Positions 15,262-38,141 of a stretch of DNA of 64,000 nt are shown here, piece by piece. Made by a program: the position numbers and the translations under genes. Source of the stretch: the human T2T-CHM13v2.0 reference genome, Homo sapiens; assembly GCF_009914755.1 (NCBI RefSeq), contig NC_060940.1. One strand, given 5' to 3'. Under the pieces are notes generated by a model that was not told the origin of the DNA, ran no database searches, and saw only the letters and a program-made list of their open reading frames with translations. Within the stretch, counting starts at the first letter, position 1, and each line of letters opens with the position of its first letter.

Positions 15262-15882
15262 GAGACCTCATCCACCTGGCCAGCTCAGACGTGCGGGCAC
15301 CGCAGCGCTCAGAGCTGGGAGCCGAGTCACCATTGCGGATGGTGGCGTCCCAGGCCTACAACCTGACCTCTGCCCTCATGCGCATCCTCACGCGCTCCCG
15401 CGTGCTCAACGAGGAGCCCGTGACGCTGGCGGGCGAGGAGATCATGGCCCAGGGCAAGCGCTCGGACCCGCGGAGCCTGCTGTGCTATGGCGGCGCCCCA
15501 GGGCCTGGCTGCCACCTCTCCATCCCCTAGGCTTTCAGCAGGGCCCCGGCCAACCTCAGTGACGTGGTGCAGCTCGTCTTTCTGGTGGACTCCAATCCCT
15601 TTCTCTTTGGCTATATCAGCAACTACACCGTCTCCACCAAGGTGGCCTCGATGGCGTTCCAGACACAGGCCGGCGCCCAGATCCCCATCGAGCGGCTGGC
15701 CTCAGAGCGCGCCATCACCGTGAAGGTGCCCAACAACTCGGACTGGGCTGCCCGGGGCCACTGCAGCTCCGCCAACTCCGTTGTGGTCCAGCCCCAGGCC
15801 TCCGTCGGTGCTGTGGTCACCCTGGACAGCAGCAACCCTGTGGCCGTGCTGCATCTGCAGCTCAACTATACGCTGCTGGACG
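15262..15882 (+). pseudogene. PKD1P: PKD1P exon 23 (621 bp) with TAG at 15528 and an in-frame 9-bp deletion
   Basis: cag|GAGACCTC...GGACG|gtgtgt; ...CHLSIP*AFSR...; one SAN repeat missing (SSANSVVV). Confidence 0.93.
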
Positions 15883-16173
15883 GTGTGTGCAGCGGGTGGG
15901 GCACACGCGGCCCCCTGGCCTTGTTCTTGGGGGGAAGGCGTTTCTCGTAGGGCTTCCATGGGTGTCTCTGGTGAAATTTGCTGTTTCATGGGCTGTTGGG
16001 GGCCTGGCCGGAGAGGAGCTGGGGGCCACGGAGAAGCAGGTGCCAGCTCTGGTGCAGAGGCTCCTATGGCCTTTCAGGCCCGTGGCAGAGGGTGGGCTCA
16101 GGAGGGCCATCGTGGGTGTCCCCCGGGTGGTTGAGCTTCCCGGCAGGCGTGTGACCTGCGCGTTCTGCCCCAG

Positions 16174-35500: not shown

Positions 35501-38141
35501 GCTTTATGATAAAAGATGCTCAATGAAGGATGAATTAGGGATATACTGAGAATGGGGAAGGAAACTATCATCTCAGAAGTCAGCAGGCAGTAAGCAAGAG
35601 GAGGAATCAATATAGCAACAGTTTGGATCAGACTGTACAGTTTTTTTTGTTTTTGTTTTTGTTTTTGTTTTTCTGAGATGGAGTCTCGCTGTGTCACCCA
35701 GGCTGGAGTGCAATGACGTGATCTTGGCTCACTGCAACCTCCGCCTCCCAGGTTCAAGTGATTCCCCTGCCTCAGCCTCCCGAGTAGCTGGGATTACAGG
35801 CGCCTGCCACCACCCCCGCCTAATTTTTTGTATTTTTAGTAGAGACGGGGTTTCACCGTATTAGCCAGGATGGTCTCAATCTCCTGACCTCGTGATCCAT
35901 CCGCCTCGCCCTCCCAGAGTGCTGGGATTACAGGCGTCAGCCACCGTGACCGGCTCAGACTGTACTCTTCTAGCCATCTGAAATACGTTTTCTAGGTAGA
36001 GATAGATTGTGTAAGGGTACAGTTGTGAGGATAACAGAAACATGGCAGATTATTTAAAATCATCCTGAAAGTGGTGCTTTATCTGATGAAAGTGATTGTA
36101 ATCCATAGGGAAATGTTTCAACGTGCGCAAGCGTTGCGGCGGCGGGCAGAGGACTACTACAGATGCAAAGTAAGGAGCTTCCTCCCCGCAGTTGCAGGAT
36201 AGTTCAGTGCTGATGCAGATGATGCCACGGCCCTTAGACTCTCTCAACATTCAATTTCTCATGTGTTGGCTTTTTCAGATCACCCCTTCTGCAAGAAAGC
36301 CTCTTTGCAACCGGGTAAGTTTGCTTGTTTTCCTTGCTTTTGGACATAGTCTGCCAGGTCAGGACATGGATACATTTTTCTCCCTACGGCTCTGTGCTCA
36401 AGCCCTGCAGAGGGAGATGGCAGAGAGGAAGGCTGCCTACAAGCATCACAGTCCCATCCCTGTTGGTAACTGTGTTGCGCAAAAACACCTTCATCCCCAC
36501 CCAGTGGGGCCCCCATCTAATATTCTAAGTGTCAGAGGTTCCGTATTTGTAATAGCAAATGGGCCCTGACTGTAAATTAGTGAAGAGTGAATGTAACTTA
36601 TTACCCACAGGGACAATTCCAAATGAGGGCCTTAAATGATGCTCAGCTAAGCTGGTTCTTGTGTGGCCTCTGTACCTTCAAAAGCTGCCGAGTCCTATGA
36701 TTACACGCGATGGGACTTGTACACTTGAAGTGAAACACAGTTTTAAAACTTGCTTTGTTTAGAATTCCCACCTCATTTTTCCATGGACAAAAGTATTCTT
36801 TATGTCCTAGTGCACTTACAATTTGGTATTACCTGGGAGTGAAAAGAAATATTACAGCCATGCCTAACTGACTTCTTGAGGTAAGATTGTTCTGTCAGAA
36901 AACCCTCTCCCAGTTCCCCTGCAGCTCTTCAGGAATCCACATCTCTCCAGAGCTCTTTGTTCTCATGGGTGGCACCTCCAGAGTGAAGAAGATCCTTTGT
37001 CAAGAAGGGAAACAGAGGGGAAATGAGAGGGTCCTGCAGGCAGAGCTGGAATCAACTTCCACTCTGCCTCTTGCAAGCTGTGTGACCCTGGGCACAATTT
37101 CTCCTTCCTCTGGAAACCTCTGTTTTCTTAGATTTGGAGCAGGGTGGTCACACTGACCTTGCAGAGTTCTGAGAATCAGAGACAGAACATAAAAGGCCTG
37201 GAAAACATTCTCCAAAAAGAAGCTGCAACATGTGTGGACAATGGGCTTTTCATGCCTCTCTTACTGTCTCTTACTGTCTATTGACCTGGTGCAAGAAACA
37301 TGCTCTGGTGATGGCTGTGAGGGAGGAATGAGGATAGACATAGACACTCCTGTGTCTCAAACATGCTTCTTTATTACTCTGTTATGACTCTGTCTTCCCT
37401 GGGGCAGGACCCCAGCCTGCCTACATTTGCAGACAGACACAGTGGCATGTGGAGACAACAGTGTGTCCCAATGACTTTTCTTTACCCCCTAGCTGTCGGC
37501 AGTACTCAGTGGAAGGGTGATATTATGACACTGACACTGCTATTTTGAAACCTGGAGGATGGAAAGGTGCAAAAATCTATCACCAGCAACAGAAGGTGCA
37601 GACTGTGTTGGTGGCGGTAATTTTGTCCATCAAATGAATATGTGTGAAAACATTCCCTCCTTTGGCCCTACAGGTCAGAATGGCGGCAGTGGAGCATCGT
37701 CATTCTTCAGGATTGCCCTACTGGCCCTACCTCACAGCTGAAACTTTAAAAAACAGGATGGGCCACCAGCCACCTCCTCCAACTCAACAACATTCTATAA
37801 TTGATAACTCCCTGAGCCTCAAGACACCTTCCGAGTGTGTGCTCTATCCCCTTCCACCCTCAGCGGATGATAATCTCAAGACACCTCCCGAGTGTCTGCT
37901 CACTCCCCTTCCACCCTCAGCTCTACCCTCAGCGGATGATAATCTCAAGACACCTGCCGAGTGCCTGCTCTATCCCCTTCCACCCTCAGCGGATGATAAT
38001 CTCAAGACACCTCCCGAGTGTCTGCTCACTCCCCTTCCACCCTCAGCTCCACCCTCAGCGGATGATAATCTCAAGACACCTCCTGAGTGTGTCTGCTCAC
38101 TCCCCTTCCACCCTCAGCGGATGATAATCTCAAGAAACTAA
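23469..38141 (+). CDS. NPIPA: Nuclear pore complex-interacting protein family, NPIPA subfamily (morpheus); 8 coding exons, 1110 nt, 369 aa. NPIPA7/NPIPA8-like; exact paralog uncertain
   Basis: Exons 23469-23531, 27889-28017, 31619-31718, 31882-32026, 34985-35092, 36109-36169, 36279-36314, 37674-38141, all AG/GT and phase-compatible; [33 protein letters not shown]...RMIISRN*. Confidence 0.95.
24025..24240 (+). promoter_or_regulatory. Pyrimidine-rich/GC-box-like putative NPIP promoter upstream of the alternative first exon
   Basis: (CCCCT)n tract and CCGGCCCGG immediately 5' of ATG 24241; function inferred. Confidence 0.45.
24241..24384 (+). CDS. NPIPA: Alternative NPIP first exon encoding a signal-peptide-like leader, tandemly duplicated (donors after 24315 and 24384)
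   Basis: [25 protein letters not shown]|gtgagt, 69-bp repeat period; both donors are phase 0, matching exon 2. Confidence 0.7.
24440..26800. mobile_element. Alu cluster in NPIP intron 1 (~24440-24695 +, 24770-25090 -, 25175-25481 -, 25967-26267 -, 26502-26800 +)
   Basis: Alu consensus motifs. Confidence 0.85.
26818..27648 (-). mobile_element. MER30 DNA transposon split by two sense Alus (26921-27233, 27235-27535)
   Basis: MER30-like halves GGCTGCATGTGGCCCAGGACAG...ACAAATTTGTAAACTTTC and CAGCTATTGTTAGTGTTAGTG...AAAAGATTGGATATCCCTG. Confidence 0.75.
27889..28017 (+). CDS. NPIPA: NPIPA exon 2
   Basis: ttccag|GTTATC...TGT|gtgagt; [43 protein letters not shown]. Confidence 0.94.
28345..28860. 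mobile_element. Probable ERV LTR remnant in NPIP intron 2
   Basis: Purine-rich LTR-like composition; family not determined. Confidence 0.35.
31619..31718 (+). CDS. NPIPA: NPIPA exon 3
   Basis: cctag|GTGTCT...GAAG|gtatgg; [33 protein letters not shown]. Confidence 0.93.
31882..32026 (+). CDS. NPIPA: NPIPA exon 4
   Basis: ttccag|GAATT...GAACA|gtaaga; [27 protein letters not shown]. Confidence 0.93.
34985..35092 (+). CDS. NPIPA: NPIPA exon 5
   Basis: ctag|TCTGAGG...TACAT|gtgagt; [25 protein letters not shown]. Confidence 0.93.
35641..35955 (-). mobile_element. Alu with TSD TCAGACTGTAC
   Basis: TSD at 35628-35638 and 35955-35965. Confidence 0.9.
36109..36169 (+). CDS. NPIPA: NPIPA exon 6
   Basis: catag|GGAAATG...TGCAAA|gtaagg; [20 protein letters not shown]. 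Confidence 0.92.
36279..36314 (+). CDS. NPIPA: NPIPA exon 7
   Basis: tttcag|ATCACC...AACCGG|gtaagt; [12 protein letters not shown]. Confidence 0.92.
37674..38141 (+). CDS. NPIPA: NPIPA exon 8 (terminal, contains coding VNTR)
   Basis: tacag|GTCAGAATG; [17 protein letters not shown]...[12 protein letters not shown]...MIISRN*. Confidence 0.95.
37818..38128 (+). repeat. Coding VNTR with 57/69/57/69/59-bp units (LKTPxECxxxPLPPS[AxPS]ADDN)
   Basis: CTCAAGACACC unit starts at 37818, 37875, 37944, 38001, 38070. Confidence 0.93.

What the first reader, a model, noticed from the sequence alone, without database searches (positions are those of the whole stretch)
15651..38141. Intact in-frame PKD1P-NPIP chimeric ORF (~845 aa) inside a 'pseudogene'
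Seen: after the TAG at 15528, the ATG at 15651 opens a frame that I read codon by codon through exons 23(3')-30 (232+157+253+196+171+144+211+127 = 1491 nt, 497 codons) with no stop or frameshift. It keeps the GPS autoproteolysis motif (HL/T), TM1, the PLAT domain, TM2 and TM3. Exon 30 ends in phase 0 and NPIP exon 2 (27889) starts in phase 0. Splicing 19497 to 27889, skipping exon 31 (stop), exon 32 and donor-less exon 33, adds 348 NPIP residues. Established: PKD1P-NPIPA read-through loci are annotated. Inference: this could be a membrane-anchored polycystin-NPIP hybrid protein. Translation would need an internal TSS or re-initiation, because upstream exons carry stops. A lesion-free 1.5 kb is not by itself significant given the low lesion density elsewhere.
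Basis: partly seen in the sequence, partly recalled or inferred. Interest (0 to 1): 0.85.

Follow-up and report, generated by a model that had tools for sequence, protein, structure and literature searches.

The report
Known PKD1 pseudogene–NPIP fusion frame
An 845-codon open frame joining a leftover piece of the polycystin-1 gene to the neighbouring NPIPA7 gene is really in the sequence, but such fusions are already published and this one shows no sign of being kept by selection.

Summary
From the ATG at 15651, PKD1P2 exons 23 (3' part) to 30 give 497 codons without a stop. Joined in phase to NPIPA7 exons 2-8, they give 845 codons. The frame corresponds to PKD1 M2851-K3350. It keeps the HLT motif, three hydrophobic segments and PLAT.

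It is not new. RefSeq NR_146336.1, at the sister locus PKD1P4-NPIPA8, uses the same exon 30 to NPIP exon 2 junction. It holds an 845-aa frame that differs at 4 residues. A 2025 Cell Genomics paper reports Iso-seq PKD1-NPIP fusions, including at A7, with frames up to 843 aa and role unknown.

I found no sign of constraint:
- 3 of 6 pseudogene copies carry a frameshift 21 codons after the ATG.
- dN/dS is 0.39 in the frame against 0.48 in the clearly dead upstream exons (P = 0.70).
- Exons diverge as fast as introns.
- A longer lesion-free run of 2,437 nt lies upstream; the chance of no lesion in 1,491 nt is about 0.2.

The most likely reading is a chance-preserved relic frame in a young duplicate, carried on read-through RNA. 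Translation is untested.

The parts
15528..15530 (+). In-frame TAG (GAG in PKD1, residue 2810) that closes the PKD1 frame upstream of the ORF. It is shared by all 6 pseudogene copies.
15339..15489 (+). Upstream ATGs in exon 23. Those at 15339, 15378 and 15444 are in frame and end at the TAG at 15528. The one at 15487 is in another frame and opens a 78-codon uORF that overlaps the main ATG.
15651..15882 (+). ORF start (ATG, the PKD1 Met2851 codon, context gcctcgATGG) and the 3' part of PKD1P2 exon 23. It contains the 9-bp in-frame deletion near 15764.
16174..16330 (+). PKD1P2 exon 24
16511..16763 (+). PKD1P2 exon 25. It holds the GPS region with the HLT motif and matches the start of the solved polycystin-1 chain 6a70_B.
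16888..17083 (+). PKD1P2 exon 26 (first hydrophobic segment, start of PLAT)
18575..18745 (+). PKD1P2 exon 27 (PLAT, Pfam 34.3 bits)
18832..18975 (+). PKD1P2 exon 28 (PLAT, Pfam 22.2 bits)
19070..19280 (+). PKD1P2 exon 29 (second hydrophobic segment)
19371..19497 (+). PKD1P2 exon 30 (third hydrophobic segment). It ends in phase 0, and its donor context is identical to PKD1 and PKD1P4. It holds an in-frame ATG at 19483. The homologous point of the transcription start of the NPIPA6/8/9 'select' mRNAs is about 19395.
21164..21280 (+). PKD1P2 exon 31 with an in-frame TAG at 21200 (CAG in PKD1). It must be skipped to keep the frame. The stop is shared with PKD1P4 only.
21645..21731 (+). Truncated exon 33 (first 87 of 185 nt). 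This is the end of the PKD1 duplication, and no GT donor follows.
27889..28017 (+). NPIPA7 exon 2 (phase 0, Pfam NPIP 59 bits). It is the acceptor of the proposed junction, with a context identical to NPIPA8.
31619..38141 (+). NPIPA7 exons 3-8 (31619-31718, 31882-32026, 34985-35092, 36109-36169, 36279-36314, 37674-38141), read in the NPIPA7 frame to its own stop.
14969..15869 (.). RefSeq functional element 'H3K27ac-H3K4me1 hESC enhancer' over exon 23 and the ATG. A second one lies at 19310-19811, over exon 30.

Best explanation
The 845-codon frame is a real but incidental feature. PKD1P2 is a young copy of PKD1 exons 1-33 (about 2.3% intron divergence from the parent) placed next to the NPIP core duplicon. 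At that divergence, stretches of 1-2.5 kb of the old PKD1 frame survive by chance. PKD1 exon 30 ends in phase 0 and NPIP exon 2 begins in phase 0, so read-through RNAs that skip exons 31-33 and NPIP exon 1 join the two frames. Such RNAs exist. Most of them start far upstream, carry many earlier ATGs and stops, and are non-coding or decay targets. A minority may start inside exon 23. Nothing indicates that the frame is maintained by selection, so the likeliest biological status is a by-product of NPIPA read-through transcription, not a working gene. What is shown: the frame, the junction at the sister locus, the lack of constraint, and the prior publication. What is inferred: poor translation and the absence of function.
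For: Frame and phases. The same junction is in RefSeq NR_146336.1, which holds an 845-aa frame differing at 4 of 845 residues (9 of 2,538 nt), with identical splice contexts. Published Iso-seq fusions at A1, A4, A6, A7, A8 and A9 have frames up to 843 aa, 'role unknown', with sparse proteomic support. They are listed as a 'known example' in a 2026 preprint. The copy set is complete: 7 of 7 genome matches are the parent plus six pseudogenes. Of the 6 pseudogenes, 3 (P1, P3, P5) share a 1-bp deletion 21 codons after the ATG, with a stop two codons later. dN/dS for P2 against PKD1 is 0.386 in the frame (18 N: 16 S) and 0.478 in the dead upstream exons (80.5: 60.5), Fisher P = 0.70. Derived changes among paralogs in the frame are 24 N: 16 S. 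Intact lineages give 11:8 and frameshifted lineages 9:4, P = 0.71. Exon against intron divergence in the exon 23-30 interval is 2.55% against 2.29% for PKD1-P2 and 0.48% against 0.17% for P2-P4. Lesion-free runs elsewhere reach 2,437 nt, and P(no lesion in 1,491 nt) is 0.18-0.23. At least 70 ATGs lie in the 6,698 nt of exon sequence upstream within the window. Three ATGs precede the start even from the exon 23 cDNA end.
Against: Three of six copies do keep the frame, and all three sit in RefSeq read-through models or published fusions. NR_123722.1 at PKD1P6 starts in exon 23 and carries an 800-aa frame only 284 nt from its 5' end. RefSeq marks an hESC H3K27ac/H3K4me1 element over exon 23 of this very copy. 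The published fusions needed at least 5 Iso-seq molecules each. The in-frame uORFs end 123 nt before the ATG, a layout that can allow re-initiation (the mechanism is recalled general knowledge). The site-based ratio among paralogs (24 of 40 non-synonymous against 74% expected) is nominally low, P = 0.047. However, the dead upstream exons show the same skew. My tests use one haplotype and few substitutions, so weak constraint cannot be excluded.
Confidence: 0.72

Rival explanations
1. The frame is translated from exon 23-initiated transcripts into a working chimeric membrane protein: PKD1 2851-3350 with PLAT and three membrane segments, fused to NPIPA. It might modulate polycystin signalling or tether NPIP to membranes.
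For: The frame is intact in P2, P4 and P6. A cDNA model starts in exon 23 (NR_123722.1). An hESC chromatin mark lies over exon 23. Iso-seq fusions have long frames, and the authors point to the precedent of truncated duplicates acting as dominant negatives. The stop lies in the last exon, so such an RNA would escape decay (the rule is recalled).
Against: There is no constraint signal, and 3 of 6 copies are frameshifted. There is no N-terminal hydrophobic signal ahead of 222 residues that are extracellular in PKD1 (the topology is recalled). The REJ region and the front part of the GPS-bearing domain are missing, so self-cleavage is doubtful (recalled, not tested). Three upstream ATGs precede the start, one opening an overlapping uORF, and the start context has a pyrimidine at -3. 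I found no paper with PKD1P and Ribo-seq (0 papers), and proteomic support is called sparse.
Confidence: 0.08
2. The frame is occasionally translated, by leaky scanning or re-initiation on short transcripts, but the product is unstable noise without function.
For: This rests on the same transcript evidence as above. The uORF layout is compatible with some re-initiation. Evolution looks neutral.
Against: There is no direct evidence of any translation. Most transcripts are full-length read-through models with dozens of earlier ATGs.
Confidence: 0.2
3. This reading does not exclude the best explanation. The in-phase exon 30 to NPIP exon 2 junction matters mainly for transcripts that start inside exon 30. 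There the in-frame ATG at 19483 would give an NPIPA7 variant of 353 aa, with 5 PKD1-derived residues in place of the 21 residues of NPIP exon 1.
For: The RefSeq 'select' mRNAs of NPIPA6, NPIPA8 and NPIPA9 start 23-24 nt into PKD1P exon 30. The window has an hESC chromatin element at 19310-19811. From the homologous start point (about 19395), the first ATG is at 19483, it is in frame, and with this junction it opens 353 codons. The paper counts 10 fusions, of which only 4 are multi-exonic.
Against: The RefSeq select models that start in exon 30 go on through exons 31-32 to NPIP exon 1, not directly to exon 2. NPIPA7's own select model starts at 23364 (finding's table). I could not see the isoform table (Table S5), which is in closed supplements.
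Confidence: 0.3

Closest known systems
RefSeq NR_146336.1, PKD1P4-NPIPA8 readthrough (transcribed pseudogene)
   Same: It joins the 127-nt PKD1P exon 30 directly to the 129-nt NPIP exon 2. It holds an 845-aa frame with the same start and end. It differs at 4 residues and 9 of 2,538 nt, and the splice contexts are identical.
   Different: It is a different locus (chr16 18.3 Mb, minus strand). It is annotated as non-coding and modelled from PKD1P exon 1, so it has many upstream stops. No such model is annotated at PKD1P2-NPIPA7.
PKD1-NPIP fusion isoforms from Iso-seq (Cell Genomics 2025, PMC12790995)
   Same: The fusions are at the six NPIP paralogs next to PKD1 pseudogenes, A7 included. [quoted passage not shown]
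   Different: The lengths differ slightly from mine (497 + 348 = 845 here). Which isoform belongs to A7 is in Table S5, which I could not open. The paper groups A6-A9 for expression because the reads are hard to tell apart.
RefSeq NR_123722.1, PKD1P6-NPIPP1 readthrough
   Same: Its 5' end is inside exon 23. The same Met opens an 800-aa PKD1-NPIP frame 284 nt from the 5' end.
   Different: It keeps exon 31, which is open in P6 but has a stop in P2 and P4. It has a duplicated NPIP exon 2 and a different C-terminus.
Polycystin-1 (PKD1), C-terminal fragment as in PDB 6a70 chain B
   Same: Cleavage-site motif, first three membrane segments and PLAT. The exon 25 piece aligns to chain residues 32-51. 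The frame is 96% identical to PKD1 2851-3350 (18 substitutions plus a 3-residue deletion).
   Different: It lacks everything before residue 2851 (signal peptide, the whole ectodomain up to that point). It also lacks everything after 3350 (eight further membrane segments, channel-like domain, C-terminal tail).
Truncated duplicate genes with dominant-negative action (SRGAP2C, NOTCH2NL, ARHGAP11B), as named by the authors
   Same: A partial copy of a parent gene in a recent segmental duplication, which is transcribed.
   Different: Those have demonstrated proteins and functions. Here neither translation nor constraint is shown.

Membership tests
PKD1P-NPIPA read-through fusion transcripts | A PKD1 pseudogene lies directly upstream of an NPIPA gene on the same strand | tested here: met
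   PKD1P2 ends at 21731 and NPIPA7 starts at 23364, both on the + strand (finding's table)
PKD1P-NPIPA read-through fusion transcripts | A splice junction runs from a PKD1P exon to an NPIP exon | tested here: inconclusive
   The junction is annotated at the sister locus (NR_146336.1), and donor and acceptor contexts are identical here. The paper lists A7 among loci with fusions.
PKD1P-NPIPA read-through fusion transcripts | A long frame runs across the junction | tested here: met
   845 codons
Polycystin-1 family (functional member) | GPS motif within a complete cleavage-competent domain | tested here: inconclusive
   HLT is kept. Pfam GPS scores 16.4 bits, below the 22.5 cut-off, on the exon piece. 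The frame starts only 196 residues before the cleavage site, and that this is too short is recalled, not tested.
Polycystin-1 family (functional member) | PLAT domain | tested here: met
   Pfam PF01477 on two exon pieces at 34.3 and 22.2 bits, covering profile positions 15-109 of 117
Polycystin-1 family (functional member) | Eleven membrane segments with channel-like C-terminal part and signal peptide | tested here: not met
   Only PKD1 residues 2851-3350 are present, with three hydrophobic segments. There is no N-terminal hydrophobic stretch: the maximum 19-residue hydropathy is 0.22. The duplication ends in exon 33.
NPIP family (Pfam PF06409) | NPIP domain, read in the NPIPA frame | tested here: met
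   The exon 2 piece scores 59 bits against a cut-off of 27.5. The frame equals the annotated NPIPA7 coding frame from exon 2 to the stop.
Functional (selected) protein-coding gene | Purifying selection on the frame relative to neutral sequence | tested here: not met
   dN/dS is 0.39 against 0.48 in the dead exons, P = 0.70. Exon divergence is at least as high as intron divergence. 3 of 6 copies are frameshifted.
Functional (selected) protein-coding gene | Evidence of translation | not testable with these tools
   No reads, Ribo-seq or mass-spectrometry data were available here. Literature: 0 papers hold PKD1P and Ribo-seq, and the authors call proteomic support sparse.

The most novel reading that the evidence does not exclude
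Transcripts that start inside exon 23 of PKD1P2, PKD1P4 and PKD1P6 are translated from the conserved PKD1 Met2851 codon. The product would be an ape- or human-specific membrane protein carrying the polycystin-1 PLAT domain and first three membrane segments fused to NPIPA. It would interfere with or modulate polycystin-1/2 complexes, or anchor NPIP at membranes. The authors of the 2025 Iso-seq study already raise this idea, so even if true its novelty would lie in the proof, not in the idea.
Probability: 0.08. Interest if true: 0.6.

Novelty: already known. Interest (0 to 1): 0.2.

Why it matters
If the chimera were made, it would be a recent primate protein derived from a major kidney-disease gene. 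It might modify polycystin dosage effects, and it would add to the short list of truncated duplicates with function. As things stand, the frame and the fusion RNAs are already in RefSeq and in print. This work adds three points. The frame is open in only 3 of the 6 copies of this genome. It evolves like the dead parts and the introns. The same in-phase junction could also serve much shorter exon 30-initiated NPIPA variants.

Tried and rejected
I considered a chance or annotation artefact and rejected it.

I considered whether the lesion-free run is a sign of selection and rejected that. P is 0.18-0.23, and a longer clean run of 2,437 nt lies in exons 10-15.

I considered whether the ATG is pseudogene-specific. 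It is not: it is the PKD1 Met2851 codon.

I looked for a REJ or other Pfam domain in the first 77-117 residues. None was found at E up to 1, either in the window piece or in the parent's exon 23. The DUF4663 and ACTH matches (E 0.13 and 0.25) are at chance level.

Rfam over 14000-24000 found nothing at gathering score.

I searched for translation evidence in papers. 'PKD1P' + 'Ribo-seq' gave 0 papers. 'PKD1P' + pseudogene + peptides + proteomics gave 4 papers, of which I opened only one; its single passage naming PKD1P lists the fusion as a known example and gives no peptide evidence. 'PKD1 pseudogenes' + 'translated' gave 5 papers, of which I opened one, which was not relevant to this frame.

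Not done:
- A database search, Atlas search or structure prediction with the whole chimera or the whole 497-residue part. These tools take only unbroken references or typed letters, and a spliced protein would be a joined sequence. I therefore cannot say whether named protein databases hold such a chimera.
- The search for homologous proteins was not used at all. Single-exon pieces of 42-155 aa could not reach proteins of about 845 aa under its length rule.
- Supplements of PMC12790995 (Tables S1 and S5) are closed. They may show the exact A7 isoforms, their 5' ends and read counts.
- Bogdanova et al. 2001 on PKD1 homologues being pseudogenes, the REJ requirement for cleavage, the size of the GPS-bearing domain, PKD1 topology and the decay rule are recalled and come from no call.

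
Full report
**Observation**

From the ATG at 15651, the 3' part of PKD1P2 exon 23 plus the next seven exons give 1,491 nt, which is 497 codons with no stop. Adding NPIPA7 exons 2-8 gives 845 codons ending at the NPIPA7 stop. 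All exon borders used are AG/GT.

Homology to the 46-exon parent gene confirms that these are PKD1 exons 23-30. The TAG at 15528 is a GAG-to-TAG change, and the ATG at 15651 is an internal Met codon of PKD1 itself. With 8,161 coding nt before exon 23, the frame corresponds to PKD1 residues 2851-3350. It differs from PKD1 by 18 substitutions and a net 3-residue deletion from a 9-bp in-frame deletion.

The domain claims hold:
- HLT is kept at residues 3047-3049.
- Hydropathy shows three strong segments, at frame residues 223-241, 431-449 and 472-490, and a weaker one in NPIP exon 2.
- I ran Pfam on ten single-exon pieces. It found PLAT on the exon 27 piece (34.3 bits) and the exon 28 piece (22.2 bits, just below the cut-off of 23).
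- It found GPS weakly on the exon 25 piece (16.4 bits against a cut-off of 22.5) and NPIP on NPIPA7 exon 2 (59 bits).
- Five of the ten pieces matched nothing, and two other matches were at chance level.
- The exon 25 piece aligns to the start of the solved polycystin-1 chain 6a70_B.

Exon 31 carries an in-frame TAG at 21200. Exon 33 is cut after 87 of 185 nt and has no donor.

**What is already annotated**

Four RefSeq read-through genes at paralogous loci appear in the transcript table, represented by five models, plus a PKD1P1 model that ends within its pseudogene. A fifth read-through gene, LOC131696449 (PKD1P1-NPIPA5L), is in the gene table, but no transcript row for it appeared.
- NR_146336.1 (PKD1P4-NPIPA8) joins the 127-nt exon 30 directly to the 129-nt NPIP exon 2.
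- From exon 23 onward that model contains an 845-aa frame with the same first and last residues. It differs from the window's frame at 4 residues (9 of 2,538 nt), all in the PKD1 part. The 12 nt on each side of the donor, and the 25 nt before and 12 nt after the acceptor, are identical at the two loci.
- NR_123722.1 (PKD1P6-NPIPP1) has its 5' end inside exon 23. The same Met opens an 800-aa PKD1-NPIP frame 284 nt from the 5' end, after two earlier ATGs. In that copy exon 31 is open.
- The models at PKD1P3 and PKD1P5 hold only 306- and 341-aa frames.
- The 'select' mRNAs of NPIPA6, NPIPA8 and NPIPA9 start 23-24 nt into PKD1P exon 30 and use PKD1P exons as 5' untranslated sequence.

**What is in print**

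- Cell Genomics 2025 (PMC12790995; I read passages and the first of two parts of the section on gene models, and passages of the preprint version). It reports 10 distinct PKD1-NPIP fusions for the six NPIP paralogs next to PKD1 pseudogenes (A1, A4, A6, A7, A8, A9). [quoted passage not shown] Its limitations section says proteomic support for the new models is sparse.
- A 2017 preprint (passages) said the fusion always gives a pseudogene.
- A 2020 Genome Biology paper (passages) said such fusions seldom keep a frame.
- Two 2026 preprints (one passage each) cite the PKD1-NPIP fusion as previously reported.

**Is the frame maintained?**

A search of the whole genome with exon 23 found 7 places: the parent and six pseudogenes. 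I aligned all seven across exons 23-30.
- All six pseudogenes share the TAG and the 9-bp deletion.
- Three of six (P1, P3, P5) share a 1-bp deletion 21 codons after the Met, with a stop two codons later.
- Three of six (P2, P4, P6) are open to the end of exon 30; P6 also has an in-frame 3-bp deletion.

In the window's copy, exons 10-32 (8,356 nt) carry four frameshifting indels (503, 533, 5660, 6952) and four nonsense changes (5316, 9434, 15528, 21200). The clean runs between lesions are 2,437, 1,292, 1,202, 1,140 and 1,650 nt. From the lesion density outside the frame, the chance of no lesion in 1,491 nt is 0.18. A second estimate, treating stops per substitution and frameshifts separately, gives 0.23.

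The substitution tests give the same answer:
- Nei-Gojobori dN/dS for P2 against PKD1 is 0.386 in the frame (18 non-synonymous, 16 synonymous) and 0.478 in the clearly dead upstream exons (80.5 and 60.5). The two do not differ (Fisher P = 0.70).
- Both are below 1, as expected when one of the two branches is the working parent.
- Of 60 changes in the frame relative to the parent, 20 are shared by all six copies (11:9) and 40 are in subsets (24:16).
- Lineages that keep the frame (11:8) do not differ from frameshifted ones (9:4; P = 0.71).
- The 24:16 ratio is nominally below a site-based neutral expectation (P = 0.047), but it equals the ratio in the dead exons (P = 0.86).
- Exons do not evolve more slowly than introns in this interval. 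PKD1-P2 divergence is 2.55% in exons against 2.29% in introns, and P2-P4 is 0.48% against 0.17%.

These tests rest on one haplotype and small counts, so they exclude strong constraint but not weak constraint.

**Could it be translated?**

In a full-length read-through RNA, at least 70 ATGs lie in the 6,698 nt of exon sequence upstream within the window alone, along with the stops listed above.

If an RNA began where NR_123722.1 begins (homologous to window 15368), three ATGs would still precede the start. Those at 15378 and 15444 are in frame and end at the TAG at 15528. The one at 15487 is in another frame and opens a 78-codon uORF that overlaps the start. The start context has a pyrimidine at -3 and G at +4.

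RefSeq marks an hESC H3K27ac/H3K4me1 element at 14969-15869, over exon 23 of this copy, and another at 19310-19811, over exon 30. This is weak support for regulatory activity there.

The product would have no N-terminal hydrophobic signal before 222 residues that lie outside the cell in PKD1 (the topology is recalled). It would also lack the upstream region that, from memory, is needed for cleavage at the GPS site. I could not fold or search the whole spliced protein, because that would require typing a joined sequence.

**An alternative use of the same junction**

From the point homologous to the exon 30 start sites of NPIPA6, NPIPA8 and NPIPA9 (about 19395), the first ATG is at 19483 and is in the PKD1 frame. 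Spliced to NPIP exon 2, it opens 353 codons. That would be an NPIPA7 variant with five PKD1-derived residues in place of exon 1's 21. This may correspond to some of the six fusions that the paper does not count as multi-exonic, but that is an inference.

**Verdict**

The interpretation as a possible hybrid protein is neither excluded nor supported. The feature is already known. It most likely reflects a chance-preserved relic frame in a young duplicate, carried on NPIPA read-through transcripts.

Noticed in passing
window 14357-14501: A 145-nt homologue of PKD1 exon 22 (99.3% identical, with AG/GT borders) is present but is missing from the RefSeq exon list of PKD1P2.
   Followed up: partly
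window 15259-15262, 10711-10750, 21368-21371: Some RefSeq PKD1P2 exon borders differ from the homologous PKD1 borders. Exon 23 is drawn 3 nt early, so its 'acceptor' reads TG. Exon 21 is drawn 39 nt longer. Exon 32 uses the 53-nt rather than the 50-nt form.
   Followed up: partly
window 16764-16887 (intron 25): This 124-nt intron differs at 1 position from the PKD1P3 intron, whose last 60 nt RefSeq annotates as MIR6770, and at 1 position from the PKD1 intron. No MIR6770 is annotated in this copy. Rfam gave no match at gathering score.
   Followed up: partly
window 19371-19497 and 19310-19811: The 'select' mRNAs of NPIPA6, NPIPA8 and NPIPA9 start inside PKD1P exon 30, while NPIPA7's starts at 23364. 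The window carries an hESC chromatin element over the homologous spot, so NPIPA7 may have the same unannotated upstream start.
   Followed up: partly
window 15262-19497: Divergence from PKD1 is uneven. Exons 23-25 are 95.3-96.2% identical, whereas exons 26-30 are 98.1-99.5% identical. This could reflect gene conversion with the parent or local mutation bias.
   Followed up: no
window 15080-19670 against G000 chr16 18343700-18348300: PKD1P2 and PKD1P4 are nearly identical in this interval (4 differences in 2,356 intron nt). They alone share the exon 31 stop. This points to a very recent duplication or homogenisation of the two PKD1P-NPIPA units.
   Followed up: partly
window 533-5316 (exons 10-15, spliced): This is the longest lesion-free stretch of the old PKD1 frame in this copy, at 2,437 nt. 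It is longer than the stretch the finding is about.
   Followed up: yes
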